Of a stretch of DNA of 64,000 nt, positions 1,174 to 12,021 are shown in pieces (within the stretch, counting starts at the first letter, position 1; each line of letters opens with the position of its first letter). The notes beneath the pieces were generated by a model. The model made no database searches, was not told where the DNA came from, and saw only the letters and a list, made by a program, of their open reading frames with translations. The translations under genes were made by a program, and so were the position numbers. The DNA is from an uncultured Planctomycetia bacterium (GTDB lineage Bacteria > Omnitrophota > Gorgyraeia > Velamenicoccales > Velamenicoccaceae): NCBI GenBank assembly GCA_964501505.1, contig CAZCSY010000001.1, positions 4,962 to 68,961 of the forward strand, written 5' to 3'.

Positions 1174-1878
1174 GAAGAGGACGGGGCGGCAGATCTTTTT
1201 TTTGAAGAGCATCTTGAGAAACCGCAGGTAGGACGCGAAGACCCTGAGGTTGGCCGCCGTCAGCGTCTCGTGGTGGAAAAAGACACCCACCAGCCGGTGG
1301 CGGTTGAGGGCCGACAGCGTCTGCTGGACGAGACTCGGCAGGACGAGGGGCAGGCATTTATAATGTTGCGTGTAGGTGTTGACGCTGACCTGGGCCGCCA
1401 GGTAGAGGAGGTCCGGCGGGCAGGGCAGGGGCTTTGCAGGGCCGGCGGCGAAGGCCTCAAACGGCCCCTCGGCGGCCGCCCGAAGCGTCCGGGCGTCGTA
1501 GCCGTGGAAGGGCGGGACGAAGGCGGGCACGAGACGTGAGCCTAATTTTTTGTTGAGCACCTGCCATCCCTTTTCCATGTCTTTTTTCTGGCGGGCGAAG
1601 GCCCGGCGGGGGCCGAATTCGTAGCGCTTGAGGCGGTGGCCGAAGTTCCGATGGGTCCACCCGTGCTGGACGACGTCAAAGGGGATCTTTTTTGCGGCCG
1701 GAGACCTGAGAAAGGTCACCAGCCTTTTTTTTATTCGTTGCGGGATCACGGCGTAGACGACAGGGATGTCTTTTTGCGCGCAGAGCTCGAATGCCGCGAG
1801 GAAGCGCGGCCGCGTGTCCGAGACGTCGTCGTCGCGCAGGAAGAGATAACGCGGACGATCCTTCAGGATTTCATCCAT
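1111..1878 (-). CDS. polysaccharide-deacetylase-like (DUF2334-type) protein
   Basis: LFLRDDDV and VVQHGWTHRNFG motifs resemble predicted deacetylases. The start overlaps the stop of the upstream minus-strand radical SAM gene. The 3' end overlaps the convergent + gene by 63 nt. Confidence 0.55.
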   Translation of the reverse strand: MDEILKDRPRYLFLRDDDVSDTRPRFLAAFELCAQKDIPVVYAVIPQRIKKRLVTFLRSPAAKKIPFDVVQHGWTHRNFGHRLKRYEFGPRRAFARQKKDMEKGWQVLNKKLGSRLVPAFVPPFHGYDARTLRAAAEGPFEAFAAGPAKPLPCPPDLLYLAAQVSVNTYTQHYKCLPLVLPSLVQQTLSALNRHRLVGVFFHHETLTAANLRVFASYLRFLKMLFKKKICRPVLFSDILRQKRYFQALTASHAPR

Positions 1879-3275
1879 GGGTCTCTGGCGAAGAAGGTCT
1901 TAAAGGCCTGCCGGGCCCAGAATCGGCTGCCGCCCCGGCACCTGAGCAGGTCCTCGCACCGGCGGCAGGCGGCCGGCAGATAGGCGAAGCCGCACAGGGT
2001 CTTGCGATAGGGATGTTGCCATGCCTTTTCGATCTCCCCGCCGCACGACACGTCGATAAAATAGCTGGGTTTGAAGACGCCCCGGGTGTCCCGCACGAGA
2101 CGGCTGTGGCCGTCGTCGAAATAGGCGCCGGTCAGGATGAGGTCTCTTTTGGTCTTGTCGGCGACGCTGCAGAAAGGCACGGGGTTGGCGACGGTAGCGA
2201 ACAGCCCCCGGCGGCCGAGCGACCAGAGCCGTCCGACGAGGCGGCTGATGTCTCGGGCCGTGACGTCATATTCTTTGTCGCTGGCAGCGTCCTTGCGGAC
2301 GATCATGGGCCGGAAGAGCTCCCAGCGCCTAATGCCCAGATCCTTGATGAGCCCGCTATAGGCGTCGAGGTGCTTGAGGAGCGTGCGCGAGATGACCGTG
2401 CCGCAGCGCAGGAGAGGGATGCCCGCCCTGACGAGCCGGCGGATGTGATCGGTCTTTTTCGCAAAGAGGCGGCCGCCGCGCGTGAGGCGTTCTTCGCTCG
2501 CGGCATCGTGTCCCTGGAGCGATATCAGGATGTTGTCGACGTACCGCGAGATGGCGCCGAGCATCTTTTCGGGCAGGACGGTGGCGTTGGTGTTTAACAG
2601 GACATAGAGATTTTTCTCCTTGGCATATTTTAAGAGCTCCGGCAGATCCGGCCGTAGCAGCGGCTCGCCTCCCGTCAACCGGATGTTCGGGATGCCCAGG
2701 CGGCGGGTTGCGTCGATGACCCCTTTTATCTCTTTCTTCGCCAGGGCGGTCGGCGATGCCTTTTTTGAAGCAAAACAGGCCCGGCAGCGGAGGTTGCACG
2801 TCGTGTTGACTTCGATGACGATCTCATTCGGCTGGTCGGGGACAGGGCGCAGAAAGGACAGAAGGTTTTCGTCACGCCGGGCGCCGGGCCGCGGCGCGGC
2901 GATACCGGGGCAGAATGTCTTGAGGTGACAGGCCTCGCAGAGAGCGATTCGGTTGTAGGCGTGCCTGCCCTTTCGCTCATAGACGACGTGGTCCCAGGCC
3001 TCCGGCAGAAAGCAGAAGGGGATGCCTTTGAGCCGGATCACGAACCAGTCCTCGAAGCCGTTGAGGAGCTTATAGAGGAGGAACTGGATGATCTCTTTGC
3101 GTCGTTGCGAGGCAAAGTCTTTGATGCCGACTTCGATGCGGCGCCTATCGGTCTCCAGGCGCCAGGAGGCGCCCAGGAGGACAAGGGCCCGGCGGATATG
3201 CTTCAAGACGGTCTCGGCAGTCACGGGACTCACGGAAGGATCCGGGATGCCGTTTTTCACCAGAGCGCTTTTCAT
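1863..3275 (-). CDS. radical SAM/SPASM-domain protein with ~160-aa N-terminal extension
   Basis: TTCNLRCRACF, TGGEPLL and a C-terminal CGGE..CGF..CRRCEDLLRCRGG region. ATG at 3275 (MKSALV) is chosen over the ORF opening at 3365 because a conserved leader and RBS lie immediately upstream. Confidence 0.85.
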   Translation of the reverse strand: MKSALVKNGIPDPSVSPVTAETVLKHIRRALVLLGASWRLETDRRRIEVGIKDFASQRRKEIIQFLLYKLLNGFEDWFVIRLKGIPFCFLPEAWDHVVYERKGRHAYNRIALCEACHLKTFCPGIAAPRPGARRDENLLSFLRPVPDQPNEIVIEVNTTCNLRCRACFASKKASPTALAKKEIKGVIDATRRLGIPNIRLTGGEPLLRPDLPELLKYAKEKNLYVLLNTNATVLPEKMLGAISRYVDNILISLQGHDAASEERLTRGGRLFAKKTDHIRRLVRAGIPLLRCGTVISRTLLKHLDAYSGLIKDLGIRRWELFRPMIVRKDAASDKEYDVTARDISRLVGRLWSLGRRGLFATVANPVPFCSVADKTKRDLILTGAYFDDGHSRLVRDTRGVFKPSYFIDVSCGGEIEKAWQHPYRKTLCGFAYLPAACRRCEDLLRCRGGSRFWARQAFKTFFARDPWMKS

Positions 3276-3402
3276 GGCAGGTCCCTTTTTTACTCGACAC
3301 CTCAGGCCTGGCGGTGCCGCTTGCGCGTCCCCGGCCCCGCCCCGCCTCTTGGCGGGACGCGCCAAACGGTCGGACTTCTTCGCCCGAGCAGCGCCTTACG
3401 CA
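3276..3402 (-). promoter_or_regulatory. conserved structured 5' leader, copy A (homologous to 11908-12021)
   Basis: The minus-strand sequence aligns with 11908-12021. A 30-nt core (3311-3340 vs 11961-11990) differs at 1 position, and similarity continues through gtcgag-A-run-RBS to the ATG. Confidence 0.5.
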
Positions 3403-3408
3403 GAAGGC

Positions 3409-3437
3409 ATCTTACACCGCACAGAGGGATTTTGCAA
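3409..3437 (-). promoter_or_regulatory. sigma70-like promoter for the minus-strand radical SAM arm
   Basis: On the minus strand: TTGCAA, 17 nt, TAAGAT, placed just upstream of leader copy A. Confidence 0.4.
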
Positions 3438-3475
3438 GCGGTCCGAGGCTCGTCAGGAGCACAGAGACAAGATGA

Positions 3476-3504
3476 TTGCCAACAGACCCATTCATTGCTA
3501 TAAT
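3476..3504 (+). promoter_or_regulatory. sigma70-like promoter of the hxs operon
   Basis: TTGCCA (3476-3481), 17-nt spacer, TATAAT (3499-3504). It lies ~145 nt upstream of the first operon gene. Confidence 0.5.
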
Positions 3505-3649
3505 TTAAGTCCAAGAGTGAAAGACTGTTGCGAAAAAACGGCTTATCCGCCGTTGTATTTTCAGTATAGCAAATTCCCTTTTCTTATTATATACTACTAA
3601 TAGACAAGGGAATTCCGTAAAGGACGGCCAAAAGGGAACAAGGAGGGTT

Positions 3650-4192
3650 ATGGGGCGGACTTTCTTTGGTTCGGAGTGGAAGGTGAGTTTTTTTGAGGCA
3701 TTGGCACTGTTTTTTCTTTTTGCCTTCGGCGCTTTTGTCTTCTACGGCTATTGCCAGGAAGAGCGCATCACCTTGACCACCTACTATCCAGCCCCCTTTG
3801 GTATTTACCGTGACCTGAACGTCACGCGCACCCTTAATATGTCGGTCGCCAACGCGACCAACCCCACCAACGGGATTTATTTTAACGGTCCGACCGGCGG
3901 CGCCATGATGCGCGGTTTTACCAACCAGTTGCGGATAGAAATAGCCAATGCGGCGGCCAACACCATCTATATGGGGTCCACCACTGGTTGCGGCGTGGTC
4001 CTCGGGAACGACGGCAACGTGTATGTGTGCGCGGATGTACTCGTGCATTCGAGCGGTCCCGGGCATGGCTGCTTCGTCGTGACGTATAGTTCGTTCAGCG
4101 GCATCACGGCATGCCCGGGCGGTTACACCGTGAACCTGGCGTTGTCGGGCGTGGCGACGACCACCGGCGGAGTATTTTTCTGCTGTAAGTAA
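3650..4192 (+). CDS. exported or membrane-anchored Cys-rich protein, no family recognised
   Basis: RBS aaggaggg. N-terminal hydrophobic helix FFEALALFFLFAFGAFVFYG. Gly/Thr/Asn-rich body with 7 Cys, ending in ..GGVFFCCK. Confidence 0.7.
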   Translation: MGRTFFGSEWKVSFFEALALFFLFAFGAFVFYGYCQEERITLTTYYPAPFGIYRDLNVTRTLNMSVANATNPTNGIYFNGPTGGAMMRGFTNQLRIEIANAAANTIYMGSTTGCGVVLGNDGNVYVCADVLVHSSGPGHGCFVVTYSSFSGITACPGGYTVNLALSGVATTTGGVFFCCK

Positions 4193-4197
4193 AAAAG

Positions 4198-4611
4198 ATG
4201 AGAGAATTCGTCTTAAGGGTCAGCGAAGACATCTATCCCGCGGAAGCGGTCTTGAACACCTGTTACCTTTTTCTGGAGCGCGCGTATTTTTTTGTGGAGC
4301 GGGAGAAAACAGGGATGAAGGTTCTGAAGATCCATATCCGGCCCAAAGAGAACGCCGGTGCCCCGCGGGCGCTCAAGGCTCTGCGCGGTGCGTTTTTGGA
4401 CGAGTTGGTCTATTCGTCTCTGCGCTGTACCCTGGCGCGCGAGAACCGCAAGATCCGGGAGTTTATCGTCGGCAGCGCGCTCTACGCGCAGGCCGGTTTT
4501 TCGAAGGACGAGCTTTTTTTGTCGCCGAGCGCCGACTACGAAGAGGATCCGCTGGGTATCGCCAAAACGCTGAAGAGGCGCCGTGGCAAGAAGACTTCGC
4601 AGACAATTTGA
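4198..4611 (+). CDS. hxsD: HxsD-like His-Xaa-Ser system protein
   Basis: Size, position next to the radical SAM pair and an FLDELVYSSLR..LARE segment resemble the LLNDYxLRE-type HxsD family. Assignment is by motif only. Confidence 0.6.
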   Translation: MREFVLRVSEDIYPAEAVLNTCYLFLERAYFFVEREKTGMKVLKIHIRPKENAGAPRALKALRGAFLDELVYSSLRCTLARENRKIREFIVGSALYAQAGFSKDELFLSPSADYEEDPLGIAKTLKRRRGKKTSQTI

Positions 4612-4612
4612 C

Positions 4613-4804
4613 ATGACGCTCTACAGGAAGGACGCCCTCCGGCGGGCCCTGGCGGCCTTCCGGGCATTCGCGGATTTCAGGGTGGTTCCCCTCCCGGGCG
4701 GTCGCATCGAGGTTGAGGTCCGCCGGTGTCCGACGGCCTATCGGCGCAGCATCCTGGATGAGTTCGCCAACTATCTCTTGGGGGCGACGTGGAAGGCGCA
4801 TTGA
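4613..4804 (+). CDS. small HxsD-like paralogue (63 aa)
   Basis: ATG lies 1 nt after the hxsD stop. ..RIEVEVRRCP..SILDEFANYLLGA echoes the HxsD C-terminal motif. The start is uncertain because the ORF also opens at GTG 4583. Confidence 0.5.
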   Translation: MTLYRKDALRRALAAFRAFADFRVVPLPGGRIEVEVRRCPTAYRRSILDEFANYLLGATWKAH

Positions 4805-6315
4805 GGCCGCCGCGGTTGGAGCGCAAGCGTGTCGGGTATTTCCGGTTCAAGAGGTTCAAGGACCGTTTTCTCTTGACCAATGATTTCGGGTACTTTATCT
4901 TTCTCTCTCGGCGTTCATTTCTTGCATTTGTGGAAGGGCGTTTCGAGGACCTCGACCCCGGGACGTTCCGGGAGTTGGAAGACAGGGGCATGGTCCGGGA
5001 CAAGATGTATCTGCCCCGGCTGATCAATAAGTTCGCGGCGAAGAATTTTTGCGGGCGCGGGCCGGATCTGCATATCGTCGTCGTCACCCTGCGGTGCACC
5101 CACCGTTGCGTGTATTGTCACGCCGGGGCGGCGGGGTTCGGTGAGCGGGGCGTGGACATGACGCGCGCGACGGCCCGCAAGACGCTTGACAAGATCTTCG
5201 AGACGCCGAGCAAGTACGTCACGATCGAGTTCCAGGGCGGCGAGCCGCTCTTGAATTTTGACGTCGTGCGCTTCATGATCCTGCGGGGTCTTGAGAAGAA
5301 CCGGACGGCCAAAAAGAACCTGAGCTTTTGCGTCGTCACGAATCTCTGGCCCATGACGGATGCGATCCTGGACTTTCTGGCGGCGCACAAGATTCAGATC
5401 TGCATGTCGTTGGACGGGCCCCGGACGCTGCACGACCGTCAGCGACCTCTCCTGAACGGCAGAGGGACACACCGGAACACGGTGGCGTGGCTCAAAAAGG
5501 TCAGAAAGCGGTACGCGAAGACGAAAGGTGTCCCCCTGCCGGGGGCGCTGCTGACGTTGACGCGGCTCTCTTTGAAATATCCCCGGCAGATCGTGGATGA
5601 GTACCTCCGGTGCGGCCTGAACAACATCCACCTGCGGCCCGTCAGTCCCTTCGGCATTTCGTCGGAGGCATGGCAGGATTACCGCCTCTCGTCCGCGGCC
5701 TTTCTTGAGTTTTATCGCAAGACCCTGGATTATATCCTGGCGCTCAACAAGAAGGGCGTGTTTTTCACGGAACGTTACGCCGCCATCTTCCTTTCTAAGA
5801 TCCTGACGGGCATCGATCCGGCCTTTCTGGACCTGCGGTCGCCCTGCGGGGCGGGGATCGGGCAGTTGGCGTATAATTACGATGGTGCCGTCTACACGTG
5901 CGACGAAGGCCGGATGCTGGGCCGGCGCGGCGATCCCAGTTTCCGGATTGCCGATATCGACGGGTTCTCCATCACGCGGCTGGGCGACAGTGAGGTCGTG
6001 CGGTCCGTCTGCACCGCGTCGTGCCTCGACGTCATTCCGGGGTGCGCGGACTGCGTGTACAAACCTTATTGCGGGACGTGCCCGGTTTATAACCATTTCA
6101 CAGGGGGGAGCATTTTTGGTCGGACGCCCTTTTTGTGCGAGATCTACACGGGCATCCTGGATATGTTATTCGAGAAGTTGAGCGAGCCGAGTACGGAGTC
6201 TCTCTTGCTGAGGTGGGTGGGAGCCACCAGAATCGGCGGCTCGCGGCCGACACGAGGTCGTCCGCAGGCGAAAAAGACGAACAAACGGGAAGATTTTTTA
6301 GAAGGGGAGGTGTAG
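4789..6315 (+). CDS. hxsB: radical SAM/SPASM maturase, HxsB-like
   Basis: RCTHRCVYCHA and FQGGEPLL motifs. SPASM-type C-terminus CGAG..YDGAVYTCDEG..CADCVYKPYCGTCP. N-terminal YFRFKRF..LLTNDFG extension. GTG start overlaps the previous gene. Confidence 0.8.
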   Translation: MEGALRPPRLERKRVGYFRFKRFKDRFLLTNDFGYFIFLSRRSFLAFVEGRFEDLDPGTFRELEDRGMVRDKMYLPRLINKFAAKNFCGRGPDLHIVVVTLRCTHRCVYCHAGAAGFGERGVDMTRATARKTLDKIFETPSKYVTIEFQGGEPLLNFDVVRFMILRGLEKNRTAKKNLSFCVVTNLWPMTDAILDFLAAHKIQICMSLDGPRTLHDRQRPLLNGRGTHRNTVAWLKKVRKRYAKTKGVPLPGALLTLTRLSLKYPRQIVDEYLRCGLNNIHLRPVSPFGISSEAWQDYRLSSAAFLEFYRKTLDYILALNKKGVFFTERYAAIFLSKILTGIDPAFLDLRSPCGAGIGQLAYNYDGAVYTCDEGRMLGRRGDPSFRIADIDGFSITRLGDSEVVRSVCTASCLDVIPGCADCVYKPYCGTCPVYNHFTGGSIFGRTPFLCEIYTGILDMLFEKLSEPSTESLLLRWVGATRIGGSRPTRGRPQAKKTNKREDFLEGEV

Positions 6316-6317
6316 CG

Positions 6318-6632
6318 ATGGCAAAGCAAAGGAAGAAGACCGCCGCATTGCCGCAGATCAAAAAGGAGATCAAAGACTTCCTCATGGACGAGGAAGGGAG
6401 GATCTCCAAAAAGGACATCGCCAAGCTGGGTCTGTCTCTGGCCGTCCTGGGATTCATGCTGCAGCCGGAGATCTCTCTGGCCCAGCACCATAATAACTAT
6501 ACGTCCCACATCAGTAGCTTTGCGGCTACGGGCCACCTGTCAACATCCAAGCACCAAAACACGCACTACAACCACTCAAACCACGGCAACCACTCCAACC
6601 ATTCCAGCCACTCCAACCACGGCAGTTATTAA
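6318..6632 (+). CDS. hxsA: His-repeat precursor peptide, HxsA-like (104 aa)
   Basis: RBS gaaggggagg. Lys-rich N-region, one hydrophobic helix (LGLSLAVLGFML) and a C-terminal tail with period-3 His: HSN HGN HSN HSS HSN HGS. It is embedded in track ORF 6135..6632. Confidence 0.8.
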   Translation: MAKQRKKTAALPQIKKEIKDFLMDEEGRISKKDIAKLGLSLAVLGFMLQPEISLAQHHNNYTSHISSFAATGHLSTSKHQNTHYNHSNHGNHSNHSSHSNHGSY

Positions 6633-6724
6633 TTGCTGGCGGGGTGCGTTGCGGGCGGACGTTTTTGTTAAGCCGGAAGAGAGGTAGGCTGTGCATGAGT
6701 TTGACTTTTTGACCTCCTTTTTTT

Positions 6725-7612
6725 ATGAATCGGCGTCTCGATCTGAAGGTCACCTACCAGTGCAATAACTTCTGTCGTCTCTGCGTGCAGGGCAACAAGC
6801 GCCGGCGCTTCCCCCGTCCCCCCCGCCTCGCCTATCTTAAAAAAATAATGGAGACCAAGCGCGCCACGTGCCGCGAGGTCATCTTCACCGGCGGGGAGCC
6901 GACGATCCGTCCGGATATCTTTGAGCTCATCGCATGTGCGAAGGGACTCGGGTATGAGGTTCAGATCCAGACGAACGGCCGCATGTTCGCCTACAGGGAT
7001 TTCGCGAAGAAGGTCGTCCGTATGGGCGTCGATTCGTTCGGCGTCTCCCTGCACGGCGCCGACGCCAAGACCCAGGATTTTCTGACACGCGTCCGGGGGA
7101 GCTTTAAACAGGTGACGCACGGCATCGCCAACCTTCTGGCCCTGAGGGCGGTCCTCTCCACGAACACCGTCATCAACAAATACAACTACCGTCAGCTCTT
7201 GAAGCTGGTGGACGTGCTTCATGATCTGGGTGTCGCGCAGTTCCAGCTCTCGTACCCCCACATCCTCGGCGAGGCGCGGCGCAACCGCAAGACGCTCGTC
7301 CTCAAAAAGTCCACCGTGGTCCCCTATATCCTGAAAGCCATCGAGAGGGGATTCGCGTACAACATGGTTCCCAAGGTCGAGGCTATCCCGGCGTGCCTCC
7401 TGGGTCCCTACAAAGACTGCTTGACCGACTGTGAAGTCCCGCATACCTGGGTGTGGGAGATGGCGGGGGCCAGGGATTTTACCGCTTGGTGCAAGGCAAA
7501 GGGAAAGGCGCATGGAGAGGTGTGCCGTTCCTGTCGGCTGGCGGGCGTCTGCGAGGGCCCATGGTGCGAGTACGTCACCCATTACGGCTGGGATGAGTTC
7601 CGCGCCCAGTAA
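6725..7612 (+). CDS. hxsC: radical SAM protein, HxsC-like
   Basis: YQCNNFCRLC lies 13 aa from the start, followed by TGGEPT. Cys-rich C-terminus (CLLGPYKDCLTDC..CRSCRLAGVCEGPWC). No obvious RBS. Confidence 0.75.
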   Translation: MNRRLDLKVTYQCNNFCRLCVQGNKRRRFPRPPRLAYLKKIMETKRATCREVIFTGGEPTIRPDIFELIACAKGLGYEVQIQTNGRMFAYRDFAKKVVRMGVDSFGVSLHGADAKTQDFLTRVRGSFKQVTHGIANLLALRAVLSTNTVINKYNYRQLLKLVDVLHDLGVAQFQLSYPHILGEARRNRKTLVLKKSTVVPYILKAIERGFAYNMVPKVEAIPACLLGPYKDCLTDCEVPHTWVWEMAGARDFTAWCKAKGKAHGEVCRSCRLAGVCEGPWCEYVTHYGWDEFRAQ

Positions 7613-7623
7613 ACGGTCTTTTC

Positions 7624-8595
7624 GTGTTTGAGACATTCACCCCCAAACAATTCTGCAGGGAGTTTGTTACCTCTCGAGGGAACAGCCTTCAACTGTCTTC
7701 CTTCATGGCGGTGGTCAAGGGGCTCAAGCCCTGTCTGGATGACTGGGTGGCGTGCCGGAACTTTTCCGATTTCCAAAAGGCATGCCGGCGCTACGGTCTT
7801 TTCTGTGAAACGGATACGGTCTTCCGCGTCGTCTCCCCGCGGCGCATCGGCGTCCGGATCATCGGCGCCGAAAACCTGACGACGACGCATGCCTACGGCC
7901 GGCCGTGGTCGCCGGGACTGCGGGAGGGGATGATCCACGTCTTTGTCTCGAGGTCCAAAAAGGACCTGCGGGCCTGCTGGCAGGAGGGCTGGTACCCTTT
8001 GATCATCAAGGGGCGGGTGGTCGACAAGCCCCTCATCGATGTCTATCGTTTCGGTCCCACCTTGGGCTACCCCGGCTGCTGCTGTGATTTTTTCCGTCAG
8101 CGCAACAACTGGTCGCTCTACAACTTTTTGTACGAGGTCTACAAGAACAGCGGGCCGGGGCCGTATCCGTTTCTGTGCAACGCGCTGACGCGCTACGAGA
8201 CCTATTCCTATGTCTCCCACATGCCCTGTTCGTTTTCCTGCGGCCGCACGCGCGCCCTGGCCGAGCGGATCCGGTCCGCTATCCTCGAGGAGGAGCCCGC
8301 CTTCGTCCGGGCCGTCGACCGGCACCTGAGGCTGCCTTTCCTGGTCTTCCGCGAGTGCCGGCTCTACGCCTTTGACGGGACGTTGCGCGGCAACCGGCTG
8401 GATTACCGCAGGGTCTTCTTCGCGGGGCACCAGGCCGATGAGGCGACACACGAAAAGGACCTCAAGAGGGGCGACAGTCTTTATGTGGAGAAGGACACGG
8501 TCGTTATCCTTAAAAAGGGCCGGCTGGTCAAAAAGATCGTCTGGCACAAGGAGCGGCGCGCCCTCGGCCGTCCCTTCTTGATAGGATTTGCGTGA
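7624..8595 (+). CDS. hypothetical protein with GYPGCCCDFF motif
   Basis: GTG start 11 nt after the hxsC stop. 323 aa with a Cys cluster LGYPGCCCDFFRQ..SHMPCSFSCGR. No family recognised by eye. Confidence 0.65.
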   Translation: MFETFTPKQFCREFVTSRGNSLQLSSFMAVVKGLKPCLDDWVACRNFSDFQKACRRYGLFCETDTVFRVVSPRRIGVRIIGAENLTTTHAYGRPWSPGLREGMIHVFVSRSKKDLRACWQEGWYPLIIKGRVVDKPLIDVYRFGPTLGYPGCCCDFFRQRNNWSLYNFLYEVYKNSGPGPYPFLCNALTRYETYSYVSHMPCSFSCGRTRALAERIRSAILEEEPAFVRAVDRHLRLPFLVFRECRLYAFDGTLRGNRLDYRRVFFAGHQADEATHEKDLKRGDSLYVEKDTVVILKKGRLVKKIVWHKERRALGRPFLIGFA

Positions 8596-9101
8596 TGCCC
8601 ATGGCCGAAGAGAAGCGCAACATGAGATATTTCCTGCAGGGTTTGATGCGGCAAGGGGCGTCCTGGCATGAGACGAACGCGCTGGATGATTACACGAAGC
8701 GCAAGGACCTGTGTTTTGATTTTTTGATACGCCTGTATTTTCGTGACGCAAAGGAGTTTAGCCTCCTCAGGCGGCACCTCCCCGTCCTTCTGAAAAGAAA
8801 CCGGGGAGAGGAGTGGGTCCTGGCCTGCGCGGGCTACGTCGCTTACCTCGGGCAGGACTACGAGGCGGCCTGCCGGTGGTTTCTGAAGGCCATCGAGGCG
8901 AACCCCGTCAACCTGGACAACTGGATGGACCTGGCCTTCGCCCTGCGCCATGCCGGCGACGCGGAGACGTCCACCGGCATCCTTTTTAACTTTGATTATG
9001 TGTTGTATTATGCCCGCACGTTCGGTCTTCCCGGCAGGGGCCTCGCCGGCCTCAGCGCCTTCGTGCGCAAGATCGTACGCGCCAGTGAAAAAAAGAGATG
9101 A
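8595..9101 (+). CDS. TPR-like repeat protein
   Basis: ATG overlaps the upstream TGA. ..YEAACRWFLKAIEANPVNLDNWMDLAFALRHAGD.. is TPR-like. Confidence 0.6.
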   Translation: MPMAEEKRNMRYFLQGLMRQGASWHETNALDDYTKRKDLCFDFLIRLYFRDAKEFSLLRRHLPVLLKRNRGEEWVLACAGYVAYLGQDYEAACRWFLKAIEANPVNLDNWMDLAFALRHAGDAETSTGILFNFDYVLYYARTFGLPGRGLAGLSAFVRKIVRASEKKR

Positions 9102-10066
9102 ACACCGTTCTCCTTTTGCTGCCGGCTATCTTTATCGTCGGAGTCGCCACCTCCCGGTCCGACGCCGCGGTCTACAGGATTCGCAACAAGTGGATCGCCG
9201 TGGGACTCTCTTATGCGGCGGTGGCGTATCTGGCGGCCTGGGCCTTTTATTGGCAGGGTGGGACGGCCAGCCGCGCGGCCATACCGCTCATCTGGAACTT
9301 TGAGCGTTGGTGCGTGAACTTTGCCGTTAGCCTCGCCCTCGCGTTCGTGTTGTGGCGCCGGCGCCTGTGGGGCGGCGGGGATGCGAAGCTCTTCGTCTGC
9401 TACGCGGCGCTGACGCCGCTCGCGGTTTATCCCGTCGTCTTTTTCGATTATTACTTTGCCTCCTTCTTTCTCCTATGGTGTGTCTTTGTGCCGGCGACCC
9501 TCTGGTTTCTCCTGAGCCTGGGTTGTCGCGAACTGGTGCGGGCCTGGCGCCGGCCGGAGGTCTTATGGGCCGGGCTGCGGGACAAGGCGCGGCGCCTGAC
9601 GGTTGCGGGGATATTGAAAAGTGCCGGTGAGACCGTCTGGCGTCTTGTGGTATGCGTTATCTTTTTTGCCTTTTTCCGGGACAGGGCCGCGGCGCTCCTG
9701 GGGCCGCAGATCGGCGGATCGGCCTTTGTCCAGGGTCTGGTGTTGCTCGCCGCCCTTTTGCTGCTGCGGGTGGTCACAAGGAGATTTTCGGCGTTGCTGG
9801 CGACGACGGTCCTGTTGGCAGGCCTCTTTGCCACGGACCAGGCGGCGCGGGTCCGCAGTCTCGGCACGCTGAAGACGTCGGCGCTTACCGTTTTGGTCTT
9901 CGTGTTGGTGGTTTCCCTTATTCAGCGGTTTTTTAAGTACCAGTTTGACGATAAGGACGACGAGAAGTCTTTTCTGGCCCCATGGTTTTTCGCAGGAGTC
10001 CTGGTGGTCTGGGTCCTGAAGGCCCTGCAGGGGCTGAGCTTTTTTATTCCGACGCGCGGCCTTTGA
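9098..10066 (+). CDS. A24-family (prepilin/preflagellin-type) aspartyl peptidase with extended membrane C-terminus
   Basis: Polytopic membrane protein. SDAAVYRIRNK (D-x5-I-x-N context) and GGGDAKLF signatures match the two catalytic Asp motifs of A24 peptidases. ATGA overlap with the TPR gene. Confidence 0.7.
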   Translation: MNTVLLLLPAIFIVGVATSRSDAAVYRIRNKWIAVGLSYAAVAYLAAWAFYWQGGTASRAAIPLIWNFERWCVNFAVSLALAFVLWRRRLWGGGDAKLFVCYAALTPLAVYPVVFFDYYFASFFLLWCVFVPATLWFLLSLGCRELVRAWRRPEVLWAGLRDKARRLTVAGILKSAGETVWRLVVCVIFFAFFRDRAAALLGPQIGGSAFVQGLVLLAALLLLRVVTRRFSALLATTVLLAGLFATDQAARVRSLGTLKTSALTVLVFVLVVSLIQRFFKYQFDDKDDEKSFLAPWFFAGVLVVWVLKALQGLSFFIPTRGL

Positions 10067-10090
10067 ATAACCCGAATGTTTTCTTATAAT
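10063..10090 (+). promoter_or_regulatory. sigma70-like promoter marking the end of the hxs operon
   Basis: TTGAAT (10063-10068), 16 nt, TATAAT (10085-10090). It overlaps the stop codon of the A24 peptidase gene. Confidence 0.45.
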
Positions 10091-11823: not shown

Positions 11824-11885
11824 CGCTGGCGCGACGAATAAGGAGCGCCGTTAAGCGCGGCCGCCGAGAAGGTGAGGCGGCCCAG
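11824..11885 (+). repeat. partial tandem copy (B1) of the conserved leader element
   Basis: cgctggcgcgacgaataaggagcgccgtt is identical to 11908-11936 (84-nt period). It is followed by a hairpin GGCCGCC..GGCGGCC in place of CCCCGCC..GGCGGGG. Confidence 0.6.
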
Positions 11886-11907: not shown

Positions 11908-12021
11908 CGCTGGCGCGACGAATAAGGAGCGCCGTTGAGCGCGCCCCGCCAAGAAGTCTGGCGGGGCCAGGGACGCGCAAGCGGCACCGCGGCATCTCGG
12001 GAGTCGAGAAAAAGGAGAGGC
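11908..12021 (+). promoter_or_regulatory. conserved structured 5' leader, copy B2
   Basis: Homologous to the minus strand of 3276-3402. It has two hairpins (GGCGC..GCGCC and CCCCGCC..GGCGGGG) and ends in the RBS aaaggagagg and the ATG at 12022. Confidence 0.5.

What the first reader, a model, noticed from the sequence alone, without database searches (positions are those of the whole stretch)
3476..10090. Expanded His-Xaa-Ser (Hxs) radical-SAM peptide operon: ten coupled genes, about half outside the described HxsABCD core
Seen: a near-consensus promoter (TTGCCA-17-TATAAT) at 3476-3504 is followed by ten same-strand genes (3650-10066). Their gaps are 0-92 nt, or their stops and starts overlap or abut (4609/4613, 4789-4804, 6313/6318, 8593/8595, 9098-9101). 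The next promoter-like site appears only at 10063. The set includes a His-triplet-repeat peptide, a 508-aa radical SAM/SPASM enzyme, a 295-aa radical SAM enzyme and an HxsD-like protein. Established: the His-Xaa-Ser system (HxsA precursor, HxsB/HxsC radical SAM pair, HxsD) is defined by comparative genomics. To my knowledge no product, chemistry or biological role has been shown. Inference: here the core is embedded with a Cys-rich exported protein, a mini-HxsD, a GYPGCCC-motif protein, a TPR protein and an A24 aspartyl peptidase. Together these would form a candidate complete modification, processing and export module larger than the described four-gene system.
Basis: partly seen in the sequence, partly recalled or inferred. 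Interest (0 to 1): 0.85.

Follow-up and report, generated by a model that had tools for sequence, protein, structure and literature searches.

The report
Compact variant His-Xaa-Ser radical-SAM operon
This is a real nine-gene operon encoding a divergent His-Xaa-Ser (Hxs) peptide-modification system plus three conserved extra genes that no curated family describes. Its better-known relatives were recently shown to block phage DNA entry.

Summary
A promoter at 3476-3504, whose hexamers are invariant in two orthologous loci, precedes nine tightly packed same-strand genes (3650-10066), not ten.

Curated models confirm HxsB and an HxsD-like protein. HxsD is borderline. The His-rich precursor and the 295-aa radical SAM enzyme are only distant HxsA3/A4-like and HxsC4/HxsC-like.

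A 2026 paper shows that canonical HxsDBCA is an antiphage system.

The extras are not random neighbours:
- The GYPGCCC protein (DUF483 superfamily) and the TPR-like protein are adjacent in nearly all bacterial loci recovered.
- An A24 aspartyl peptidase with both catalytic Asp motifs invariant accompanies them in about 15 loci.
- HxsB lies within 10 kb in about 11 loci from several phyla.
- One relative, joined from two overlapping contigs, runs g1-type, HxsD, HxsD_rel, HxsB, HxsA, ten radical SAM genes, then the same three genes. The window is therefore a compact form.

About 13 of 22 informative HxsB-anchored loci lack the module, and it also occurs without Hxs. It is an accessory, not part of the core. 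No transporter is present; export is implied by a Sec-like signal in the precursor.

Verdict: a new variant of a known kind, moderately interesting.

The parts
3476..3504 (+). Sigma-70-type promoter TTGCCA-17-TATAAT with a TG extension
   Evidence: Consensus scan gives 11/12. Both hexamers and the spacing are invariant in orthologous loci L040 and L007 while the spacer varies.
3583..3601 (+). Conserved block CTTATTATATACTAnTAA in the 145-nt 5' leader; role unknown (operator or second -10?)
   Evidence: Nearly invariant in the three-way alignment of window, L040 and L007. No Rfam family at gathering score.
3650..4192 (+). g1: exported Cys-rich protein (180 aa). An N-terminal hydrophobic signal is followed by the motif QEERITLTTYYPAPFGIY; the C-terminus carries C...CPxGY...CC.
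   Evidence: No Pfam or NCBIfam family. Invariant E38, T41, T44, Y45, Y46, P47, P49, C141, C155, C178, C179. A protein of this type lies directly upstream of HxsD in L007, L040, L028, L049, L052, L055 and L021, and nearby in L005, L017, L025 and L029.
4198..4611 (+). g2: HxsD-type small protein (137 aa)
   Evidence: TIGR03976 scores 47.8 bits, just under the cutoff of 50. The L001 orthologue passes at 66.8. Pfam PF27806 HxsD is recorded on orthologues.
4613..4804 (+). g3: HxsD-like mini protein (63 aa from ATG 4613, or 73 aa from GTG 4583)
   Evidence: NF038315 HxsD_rel scores 52.4, above the cutoff of 41. The same family sits at the same position in L001 (48.1 against 41).
4789..6315 (+). g4: HxsB, a radical SAM/SPASM maturase (508 aa)
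   Evidence: TIGR03978 scores 472 bits against a cutoff of 370. The CxxxCxxC residues C103/C107/C110 are invariant in the subfamily alignment. The C-terminal Cys-rich SPASM-type region is visible in the translation.
6318..6632 (+). g5: HxsA-type precursor (104 aa). It has a conserved roughly 33-aa leader, a Sec-signal-like hydrophobic segment ending SLAQ, and a 48-aa His-rich core ending in Tyr.
   Evidence: HxsA3 scores 42.9 (<65) and HxsA4 33.6 (<55). The leader is conserved and the core is variable. Precursors of relatives pass HxsA4 at 71-94 bits against 55.
6725..7612 (+). g6: radical SAM enzyme (295 aa), the HxsC-like partner of this variant
   Evidence: Best NCBIfam hits are HxsC4 (120 bits) and HxsC (94 bits), both far below cutoff. 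Orthologues at 39-80% identity follow the HxsA gene or precede g7 in most related loci.
7624..8595 (+). g7: GYPGCCC protein (323 aa), DUF483 superfamily, a putative metal- or Fe-S-binding accessory protein
   Evidence: Invariant H105, D139, G148-Y-P-x-C152-C153, N161-N-W, H199, C202, C206. The profile finds 1766 relatives, some of which pass PF04467. No structural relative was found. The GTG start at 7624 is supported by the conserved family N-terminus; public records call a truncated 296-aa form.
8595..9101 (+). g8: TPR-like protein (168 aa), the obligate partner of g7
   Evidence: Only sub-threshold TPR hits. It is adjacent to g7 in nearly all bacterial loci with downstream sequence.
9098..10066 (+). 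g9: A24-family (GXGD) intramembrane aspartyl peptidase with a C-terminal multi-TM extension (322 aa)
   Evidence: PF01478 scores 22.8 (<26.5) for this protein, but 12 of 13 family members match, best E 1.9e-9. D22 (ED....IxN) and W-G-[AG]-G-D95-A-K-L-F are invariant.
1863..3275 (-). g0: divergently transcribed radical SAM enzyme, a probable member of the system. The ORF runs to 3365, but the likely start is the ATG at 3275.
   Evidence: Radical_SAM Pfam hit. It is 75% identical and at the same position in L007. A 43% relative lies next to g9 and g7 in L025. g0-type radical SAM genes follow HxsA in L048, L057, L058 and L101. The start is inferred from the L007/L040 alignment.

Best explanation
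The locus is a compact member of a divergent His-Xaa-Ser (Hxs) radical SAM maturation system, of the kind NCBIfam labels HxsA4/HxsC4/HxsD_rel.

Shown:
- One conserved promoter drives nine tightly coupled genes.
- g5 is a small precursor with a strongly conserved N-terminal leader, a Sec-signal-like hydrophobic segment, and a variable His-every-third-residue core.
- g4 is a bona fide HxsB radical SAM/SPASM enzyme.
- g2 and g3 are HxsD and HxsD-like small proteins.
- g6 is the HxsC-like radical SAM enzyme that accompanies this subfamily.
- g7 (DUF483-like, with invariant Cys/His), g8 (TPR-like) and g9 (A24 aspartyl peptidase) form a conserved accessory module. It closes such clusters whether one or ten radical SAM genes intervene.

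Inferred:
- In the cytoplasm the leader is bound by HxsD, HxsD_rel and the N-terminal domain of HxsB.
- HxsB and g6, and probably g0, install radical-mediated modifications on the His/Ser/Asn-rich core.
- g7-g8 assist the radical SAM enzymes. A role in metal, Fe-S or redox supply, or as a scaffold, is my guess from the invariant Cys/His residues and from one fusion to DUF362 plus ferredoxin domains.
- The peptide is exported by Sec.
- The leader/signal is removed at the membrane by g9 and/or signal peptidase I.
- The modified His-rich peptide then acts in the periplasm or cell envelope. By homology with E. coli HXS its most likely role is a barrier against incoming phage DNA.
- g1 is a co-exported envelope partner or a second substrate.
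For: Operon:
- Promoter present and conserved.
- Gene junctions are -16 to +11 nt apart from one 92-nt gap.

Hxs identity:
- HxsB 472 against 370; HxsD_rel 52.4 against 41; HxsD 47.8 against 50; best hits of g5 and g6 are HxsA3/A4 and HxsC4/HxsC.
- Orthologues in L001 pass HxsD, HxsD_rel and HxsB.
- Precursors of relatives pass HxsA4.

Precursor anatomy: conserved leader, variable core.

Linkage of the extras:
- g7-g8 adjacency.
- g9 present in about 15 loci, and HxsB within 10 kb of g7 in about 11.
- L028 shows nearly the same compact order at about 38-43% identity.
- L049 and L010 overlap at 100% identity over 6,884 bp, giving g1-type, HxsD, HxsD_rel, HxsB, HxsA, ten radical SAM genes, g7, g8, g9.

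g9: catalytic motifs invariant, and 12 of 13 members hit Peptidase_A24.

Function of canonical HXS: maturation by HxsB/C/D, N-terminal processing, periplasmic effector, block of phage DNA entry (PMC13128918).
Against: - g5 and g6 fail every curated Hxs cutoff, and HxsD is marginally below its cutoff.
- The gene order (D, Drel, B, A, C-like) and the short precursor without a peptidoglycan-binding domain differ from the characterised system.
- About 13 of 22 HxsB-anchored loci with 8 kb or more downstream lack g7-g9.
- g7-g8 also occur with other radical SAM genes and no HxsB in view (L018, L023, L027, L011). The module is therefore not obligatory for Hxs chemistry.
- The pilin-like G|xSL site proposed as the g9 target is invariant only in the subclade that carries g7-g9, and shared ancestry could explain that.
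- No structure-based function could be assigned to g7 or to g1.
- PADLOC gives only generic radical SAM hits, and the flanks are housekeeping genes rather than a defence island.
- There is no expression, mass-spectrometry or phenotype evidence.
Confidence: 0.6

Rival explanations
1. There are two separate systems placed side by side. g1-g6 form the Hxs-type unit. g7-g8-g9 (with g0, and in other genomes long radical SAM arrays) form an independent radical SAM support or envelope module that acts on a different substrate, and it is linked to Hxs only because radical SAM genes cluster.
For: - g7-g8 occur without a detectable HxsB within 10 kb in L011, L018, L023 and L027, and are fused to other domains in actinomycetes.
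- Most informative HxsB-anchored loci lack the module.
- In L008 and L010, g9 is next to PMT_2 and GT9 glycosyltransferases.
- In L005, g7-g8 are transcribed divergently from the Hxs genes.
Against: - In the window the genes overlap or abut (stop/start -1 and -4 nt, and 11 nt after g6) under one conserved promoter.
- The pairing with HxsB/HxsD/HxsA recurs in about 11 loci across phyla, including the same compact order in L028.
- In the joined L049+L010 cluster the module closes an array that begins with the Hxs genes.
Confidence: 0.2
2. The machinery is the same but the purpose differs. The exported, cross-linked His-rich peptide is a metal-binding (Ni/Zn/Cu/Fe) periplasmic buffer or metallophore-like peptide, not an antiphage effector.
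For: - The core is 25% His with His every third residue, and relatives carry long (S/G)H(G/S) runs. Such tracts are classic metal ligands (general knowledge).
- A P-type cation ATPase is inserted between g7 and g8 in the 82% orthologue L007.
- The flanks are not a defence island.
Against: - The only experimental datum for any Hxs system is antiphage defence with DNA binding by HxsA.
- The inserted ATPase carries Cation_ATPase_N/C domains, which I take from memory to be typical of P2-type rather than heavy-metal pumps. It is also absent from the window and from L040.
- No metal-responsive regulator or uptake genes are seen in the operon.
Confidence: 0.25
3. This is an ordinary four-gene Hxs system whose neighbours are unrelated genes that happen to share a strand.
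For: The 2026 survey reports that more than 99.8% of HXS systems have only four genes.
Against: - That survey was built on canonical HxsA, almost all from Pseudomonadota.
- Here the extras are conserved with Hxs genes at 38-82% identity in several phyla and are tightly coupled by overlapping or abutting stops and starts.
- HxsC and HxsA of the canonical type are not present.
Confidence: 0.03

Closest known systems
Canonical HXS antiphage system (HxsD-HxsB-HxsC-HxsA) of E. coli and Klebsiella (Li et al., Nat Commun 2026, PMC13128918)
   Same: - An HxsB radical SAM/SPASM enzyme that passes the same curated model.
- An HxsD-type small protein.
- A second, HxsC-like radical SAM enzyme.
- A His-rich triplet-repeat substrate with an N-terminal region that is removed, destined for the periplasm.
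   Different: - The precursor is 104 aa with no peptidoglycan-binding domain, and its core is Asn/Ser/Gly-rich rather than basic.
- The order is D, Drel, B, A, C-like instead of D, B, C, A.
- HxsC and HxsA fail the canonical models.
- There are extra conserved genes (g1, HxsD_rel, g7, g8, g9, g0).
- The lineage is uncultivated bacteria, not Pseudomonadota.
- An antiphage role has not been tested.
NCBIfam variant Hxs families HxsA3 (NF038309), HxsA4 (NF038313), HxsC4 (NF038332), HxsD_rel (NF038315)
   Same: g3 passes HxsD_rel. The best hits of g5 and g6 are HxsA3/A4 and HxsC4. Precursors of HxsB-subfamily relatives pass HxsA4.
   Different: g5 (42.9/65 and 33.6/55) and g6 (120/500) are below cutoff. 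No curated model exists for g1, g7, g8 or g9. I found no paper that describes these variant systems or their neighbourhoods.
Radical SAM/SPASM RiPP maturases (SCIFF, PapB ranthipeptides, three-residue cyclophane enzymes XyeB/GrrM/FxsB)
   Same: A conserved leader with a variable core, a SPASM enzyme with an N-terminal extension, and small partner proteins. HxsB's next-best hits are these families.
   Different: All those scores are far below their cutoffs. The substrate carries its own Sec-like signal. No ABC or C39 exporter-protease is present. Up to ten further radical SAM genes occur in relatives.
Type IV prepilin, preflagellin and Tad peptidases (Peptidase A24: PilD, FlaK, TadV)
   Same: g9 has both catalytic Asp motifs (D....IxN and GxGDxK) invariant and matches PF01478 at family level.
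   Different: The window protein itself is below the Pfam gathering score. It has a roughly 190-aa extra membrane region. There is no pilin, ATPase or platform gene in the window, although L001 has T2SSE/T2SSF upstream. The substrate is unknown.

Membership tests
His-Xaa-Ser (Hxs) system | HxsB radical SAM/SPASM maturase (TIGR03978) above the curated cutoff | tested here: met
   472 bits against a cutoff of 370, covering model positions 3-466 of 466.
His-Xaa-Ser (Hxs) system | HxsD (TIGR03976) above the curated cutoff | tested here: inconclusive
   47.8 bits against a cutoff of 50. The L001 orthologue passes at 66.8, and Pfam PF27806 HxsD is recorded on orthologues.
His-Xaa-Ser (Hxs) system | HxsC radical SAM partner (TIGR03977, or the HxsC4 variant NF038332) above cutoff | tested here: not met
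   g6 scores 94 against 268 for HxsC and 120 against 500 for HxsC4. These are nevertheless its two best hits.
His-Xaa-Ser (Hxs) system | HxsA precursor with His-Xaa-Ser repeats recognised by a curated HxsA model | tested here: not met
   HxsA3 42.9 against 65; HxsA4 33.6 against 55. The core has His every third residue at 83-101 but only 4 strict HxS triplets. Relatives pass HxsA4.
His-Xaa-Ser (Hxs) system | [quoted passage not shown] | tested here: not met
   The order here is D, Drel, B, A, C-like. g5 is 104 aa with no Pfam domain. The canonical features are taken from PMC13128918.
His-Xaa-Ser (Hxs) system | Antiphage activity and radical-SAM-dependent maturation of HxsA | not testable with these tools
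   Needs expression, phage challenge and mass spectrometry.
NCBIfam HxsD_rel (NF038315) | Score above the curated cutoff, and a position next to HxsD/HxsB | tested here: met
   52.4 against 41. The gene lies between HxsD and HxsB, as in L001.
Peptidase A24 (prepilin-type GXGD aspartyl peptidase) | Pfam PF01478 at or above the gathering score | tested here: inconclusive
   The window protein scores 22.8 against 26.5 (E 1.3e-4). Twelve of 13 orthologues or homologues match, best E 1.9e-9.
Peptidase A24 (prepilin-type GXGD aspartyl peptidase) | Two catalytic aspartates in the conserved motifs (D in the first cytoplasmic loop; GxGDxK) | tested here: met
   D22 with I28/N30, and W91-G-x-G94-D95-A-K-L-F, are invariant in 13 sequences. 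That these are the A24 catalytic motifs rests on my knowledge of PilD, FlaK and TadV.
Peptidase A24 (prepilin-type GXGD aspartyl peptidase) | A class III (pilin-like) signal peptide substrate encoded nearby | tested here: inconclusive
   The g5 leader ends K-L-G38|L-S-L-A-V-L-G, invariant in the g7-g9-bearing subclade but not across the wider precursor family. The segment equally fits a Sec signal with an AxA-type site.
DUF483 (PF04467) | Pfam match at or above the gathering score (25 bits) | tested here: inconclusive
   The window g7 has no hit at E<=0.01. Homologues carry weak precomputed hits, and profile-found relatives P0048, P0062 and P0079 pass at 25.7-28.3 bits over the equivalent central region.
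RiPP-type biosynthetic cluster | Precursor with a conserved leader and variable core next to its maturase; a dedicated leader peptidase; an exporter | tested here: inconclusive
   Leader/core pattern and adjacency are met. There is a candidate peptidase, g9. No transporter gene is present in the operon.
TPR repeat proteins (g8) | A TPR Pfam model at or above the gathering score | tested here: not met
   TPR_17 scores 21.9 against 24.4 and TPR_2 scores 18.6 against 27. This is a helical-repeat resemblance only.

The most novel reading that the evidence does not exclude
The g7-g8-g9 trio would define an undescribed finishing route for radical-SAM-modified peptides. A DUF483-type Cys/His metalloprotein with its TPR partner would service one to ten radical SAM enzymes. 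A prepilin-type (A24) intramembrane aspartyl protease would remove the leader at a pilin-like Gly|x-Ser-Leu site. The His-rich product would then be handled like a pilin: membrane-anchored, or assembled on the envelope with g1-type TTYYP proteins. That would be the first RiPP-like pathway to use a prepilin peptidase.
Probability: 0.15. Interest if true: 0.8.

Novelty: new variant of a known kind. Interest (0 to 1): 0.6.

Why it matters
The chemistry of the Hxs modification is unsolved. The 2026 study found a +8 Da change but could not reconstitute it, because E. coli HxsA is insoluble and its enzymes are barely expressed.

This variant offers a 104-aa precursor with a clear leader/core split and a minimal enzyme set: HxsB plus one HxsC-like radical SAM enzyme. 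Relatives add one to ten further radical SAM enzymes, which forms a natural series for dissecting what each enzyme adds.

The data also show that Hxs-type systems are abundant outside Pseudomonadota. More than 556 tblastn-confirmed HxsB-subfamily stretches were found in metagenomes. The published survey puts 99.7% of systems in Pseudomonadota.

Finally, the locus gives a first genomic context to three unannotated protein families: the DUF483-like g7, its partner g8, and an A24 peptidase subfamily.

Tried and rejected
- Structure route for g7: the AlphaFold2 model reached pLDDT 75, but the motif-bearing centre is below 50. Foldseek against PDB and BFVD gave nothing below E 0.01. A profile search against PDB sequences gave nothing. 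No fold-based function could be assigned.
- Structure route for g1: pLDDT 55, unusable, so no fold search was run.
A profile search against PDB sequences found no hit.
- PADLOC gave only generic viperin/radical SAM matches.
- Rfam on the whole window gave nothing at gathering score.
- The 92-nt g5-g6 spacer and the 3' end of g9 fold no better than shuffled sequence (z-scores +1.06 and +0.04). There is no evidence for an attenuator or a strong terminator.
- A search for T2SSE/T2SSF homologues in the window found none. I therefore dropped a pilus-assembly reading for this locus, although L001 has these genes upstream.
- g1 as a pilin-like A24 substrate: close orthologues show G|FFE after a basic leader, but the window has Ser at -1. 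The wider TTYYP family has ordinary Sec signals with AxA sites just before the motif. I rejected this in favour of Sec export.
- Literature searches on DUF483, Omnitrophota with radical SAM, and prepilin peptidase with radical SAM found nothing relevant.
- I considered the 106-nt inverted repeat at 3288-3393 and 11908-12013 as a mobile-element boundary. Both copies lie just 5' of outward-facing genes and the element is absent from L040 and L007. I treat it as a small intergenic repeat, not an island border.

Full report
**1. What is in the sequence**

Between 3650 and 10066 on the + strand I find nine ORFs, not ten:

| gene | coordinates | size |
|---|---|---|
| g1 | 3650-4192 | 180 aa |
| g2 | 4198-4611 | 137 aa |
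| g3 | 4613-4804 | 63 aa (73 aa from GTG 4583) |
| g4 | 4789-6315 | 508 aa |
| g5 | 6318-6632 | 104 aa |
| g6 | 6725-7612 | 295 aa |
| g7 | 7624-8595 | 323 aa |
| g8 | 8595-9101 | 168 aa |
| g9 | 9098-10066 | 322 aa |

The gaps between successive genes are 5, 1, -16, 2, 92, 11, -1 and -4 nt.

The promoter-like site TTGCCA-17-TATAAT at 3476-3504 is the best in the region, with 11 of 12 matches and a TG extension. It sits in a 46.5% GC spacer within a 60% GC window. In the two orthologous loci L040 and L007 (about 80-86% DNA identity), both hexamers and the 17-nt spacing are invariant while the spacer sequence changes. That is a phylogenetic footprint, not proof of function.

Two weaker 9/12 sites lie inside the operon, and the next site of 10/12 or better is at 10063. 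The g5-g6 spacer and the operon's 3' end show no structure beyond shuffled controls. Operon GC (59.1%) matches the window.

**2. Family assignments**

- g4 is HxsB: TIGR03978 scores 472 bits against a cutoff of 370.
- g3 is the curated HxsD-like family NF038315: 52.4 against 41.
- g2 scores 47.8 on HxsD against a cutoff of 50, which is borderline. Its L001 orthologue passes at 66.8.
- g5's only hits are HxsA3 (42.9, below 65) and HxsA4 (33.6, below 55).
- g6's best hits are HxsC4 (120, below 500) and HxsC (94, below 268), ahead of generic radical SAM families.
- g9 scores 22.8 on Peptidase_A24 (gathering score 26.5). In an alignment of 13 homologues, D22 (ED....IxN) and W-G-x-G-D95-A-K-L-F are invariant. 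Twelve of the 13 match PF01478, with best E 1.9e-9.
- g8 has only sub-threshold TPR hits.
- g1 and g7 have no family.

Upstream lie three further genes:
- a divergent radical SAM gene, g0 (ORF 1863-3365 on the - strand, likely start at 3275);
- a DUF2334/deacetylase-like gene (1111-1878, - strand);
- a radical SAM/SPASM gene (85-1173).

Downstream genes are housekeeping types: flavin reductase, a tRNA-binding domain protein, YjbQ and anthranilate synthase.

**3. Literature**

Li et al. (Nat Commun 2026, PMC13128918) report the following:
- E. coli HxsD-HxsB-HxsC-HxsA is a broad antiphage system that blocks phage DNA entry.
- HxsA is N-terminally processed, carries a +8 Da modification on an SHRSS motif, reaches the periplasm, has a peptidoglycan-binding domain and binds DNA.
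- HxsC binds HxsD.
- 99.7% of the systems they surveyed are in Pseudomonadota, and more than 99.8% have four genes.
- The chemistry could not be reconstituted in vitro.

**4. Are the extras linked to Hxs?**

*Starting from g7.* A word-indexed search finds only 17 clusters at 90% identity. A profile search over 1.84 billion representatives finds 1766 relatives, 94 of them below E 1e-30. Some of these pass Pfam DUF483, so g7 belongs to the DUF483 superfamily.

I collected about 30 independent g7 loci. They come mostly from Candidatus Omnitrophota, with others from MAGs labelled Planctomycetia, from Elusimicrobia, and from one 'Deltaproteobacteria' MAG (64% identity). More distant copies occur in actinomycetes and DPANN archaea.

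With HMMs built from the window proteins:
- g8 follows g7 in nearly all bacterial loci that have downstream sequence. A radical SAM gene is intercalated in L018, L022 and L023, and a P-type ATPase is inserted in L007. In L034 only a weak g8-type hit lies upstream of g7.
- g9 is present in about 15 loci.
- HxsB at 250 bits or more lies within 10 kb of g7 in about 11: the window, L001, L003 (weak), L005, L007, L014, L017, L021, L025, L028, L029 and L040.
- L028, at about 38-43% identity, has nearly the window's order: g1-type, HxsD, HxsB, HxsA, g6, g9, g7, g8.

*Starting from HxsB.* A metagenome scan confirmed more than 556 relatives, and 80 were kept at 41-77% identity. Their typical layout is [g1-type], HxsD, HxsD_rel, HxsB, (x), HxsA, then 1-8 radical SAM genes. 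Their precursors pass the curated HxsA4 model at 71-94 bits against 55.

Of the 22 loci with 8 kb or more downstream:
- one (L040, a 77% orthologue) shows g7-g9;
- six or seven have radical SAM arrays that run to the edge of the fetched flank, so they cannot be judged;
- about 13 lack the module.

*The join.* L049 (HxsB-anchored) and L010 (g7-anchored) overlap at 100% identity over 6,884 bp. Together they give one cluster of about 18 kb: g1-type, HxsD, HxsD_rel, HxsB, x, HxsA, ten radical SAM genes, g7, g8, g9. L009 carries a homologous array at 66-84% identity. The +/-10 kb view therefore under-counts the linkage, and the window is the compact end of a series.

**5. Anatomy of the substrate and partners**

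*Precursors.* They share the leader LPxIKK[DE]IKxFLxxEEGKIxKK, followed by a short hydrophobic segment and an AxA-like site. The core is variable. In relatives it consists of long (S/G)H(G/S) runs, which are true HxS repeats, ending in W or Y.

The window core is degenerate. It has 12 His in 48 residues, with His every third residue from 83 to 101, and only four strict HxS triplets.

The motif K-[LI]-G|[LIV]-S-L-x-x-L-G is invariant in every precursor that sits with g7-g9. It is looser elsewhere. This is compatible with A24 cleavage, but shared ancestry plus ordinary Sec processing explains it equally well.

*g1.* It belongs to a subfamily with an N-terminal signal, the mature-end motif [IV]T[LI]TTYYP[AS]PxGxY, and a C-terminal C...CPxGY...CC. 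The N-terminal motif alone defines at least 756 clusters of small secreted proteins in Omnitrophota and Elusimicrobia.

*g7.* Its invariant residues are H105, D139, C152, C153, H199, C202 and C206. One relative is fused to DUF362 plus ferredoxin domains. These hint at metal or Fe-S chemistry, which is inference only. No structural homologue was found.

**6. Interpretation**

The best reading is a compact, divergent Hxs-type maturation operon with three parts:
- a core of HxsD, HxsD_rel, HxsB, an HxsA-like precursor and an HxsC-like enzyme (g6);
- a recurrent accessory trio, g7-g8-g9;
- a co-conserved exported protein, g1, and probably the divergent radical SAM gene g0.

The modification steps, Sec export, leader removal by g9 and an envelope function are all inferred. 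An antiphage role is extrapolated from the only characterised relative. A metal-binding role is a serious alternative.

The main structural rival is that g7-g9 form a general radical-SAM-associated module that is merely adjacent. The tight gene junctions and the recurrence across phyla weaken this rival, but it is not excluded.

**7. Novelty**

The Hxs system, and even its variant precursor, HxsC4 and HxsD-like families, are curated in NCBIfam. The canonical function is published. Not described in any paper or curated model I could find are:
- the g7-g8-g9 module;
- the g1-type partner;
- the one-to-ten radical SAM series;
- the abundance of such systems outside Pseudomonadota.

I rate this a new variant of a known kind, with interest about 0.6.

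Noticed in passing
window 3650-3810; P0182-P0301; L017, L025, L028, L029: The motif [IV]T[LI]TTYYP[AS]PxGxY, placed directly after a signal peptide, defines a large unannotated family. At least 756 clusters at 90% identity carry it, mostly 65-146-aa proteins of Candidatus Omnitrophota and Elusimicrobia with variable C-terminal parts. One member carries a phage tail-collar domain. It looks like a lineage-wide N-terminal sorting or assembly tag.
   Followed up: partly
L008, L009, L010, L015, L016, L049 (whole loci): Uninterrupted arrays of 8-10 consecutive radical SAM genes, mostly HxsC-like, lie upstream of g7-g8-g9 in Omnitrophota-type contigs. L049 and L010 join into a cluster of about 18 kb that begins with the Hxs genes.
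   Followed up: partly
window 3288-3393 and 11908-12013 (inverted), plus 11824-11880: A roughly 106-nt GC-rich repeat with internal hairpins occurs as an inverted pair (74% complementary), with a partial tandem copy. Each copy lies just 5' of an outward-facing gene (g0, and the tRNA-binding-domain gene). It is absent at this position in orthologous loci L040 and L007. It could be a small intergenic repeat or a shared leader element. No Rfam match.
   Followed up: partly
window 7624-7704: Public gene calls for g7 start at an internal Met, giving 296 aa (P0001). The 27 N-terminal residues from GTG 7624 (MFETFxPKKFCREFV...) are conserved across the family, so the longer 323-aa form is correct.
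   Followed up: yes
L007 10993-13551: In the 82% orthologous locus, an 852-aa P-type cation ATPase is inserted between g7 and g8, breaking the otherwise nearly invariant adjacency. A 606-aa TPR protein follows g9.
   Followed up: no
L001 1-3171: A T2SSE-type ATPase (with an MshEN domain) and a T2SSF platform gene lie directly upstream of the Hxs-like cluster that also carries the A24 peptidase. No homologue of either exists in the window.
   Followed up: partly
window 3429-3445 and 3583-3601: Two further blocks are conserved across window, L040 and L007 around the promoter: GGATTTTGCAAGCGG upstream of the -35, and CTTATTATATACTAnTAA in the 5' leader. They are candidate regulator sites or a second promoter.
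   Followed up: no
L003 1-431 and neighbouring genes: One distant g7-g8 locus lies next to an SMC_N/AAA_15/DUF2813 ATPase, the OLD/Gabija-like type. This is the only hint of a defence-island context among the loci examined.
   Followed up: no
P0042, P0044, P0048, P0062, P0070; L032, L033, L035: In actinomycetes (Sphaerisporangium, Nocardia), the g7-like domain is the C-terminal third of 850-960-aa proteins. Their N-terminal 600 residues match no Pfam family.
   Followed up: no
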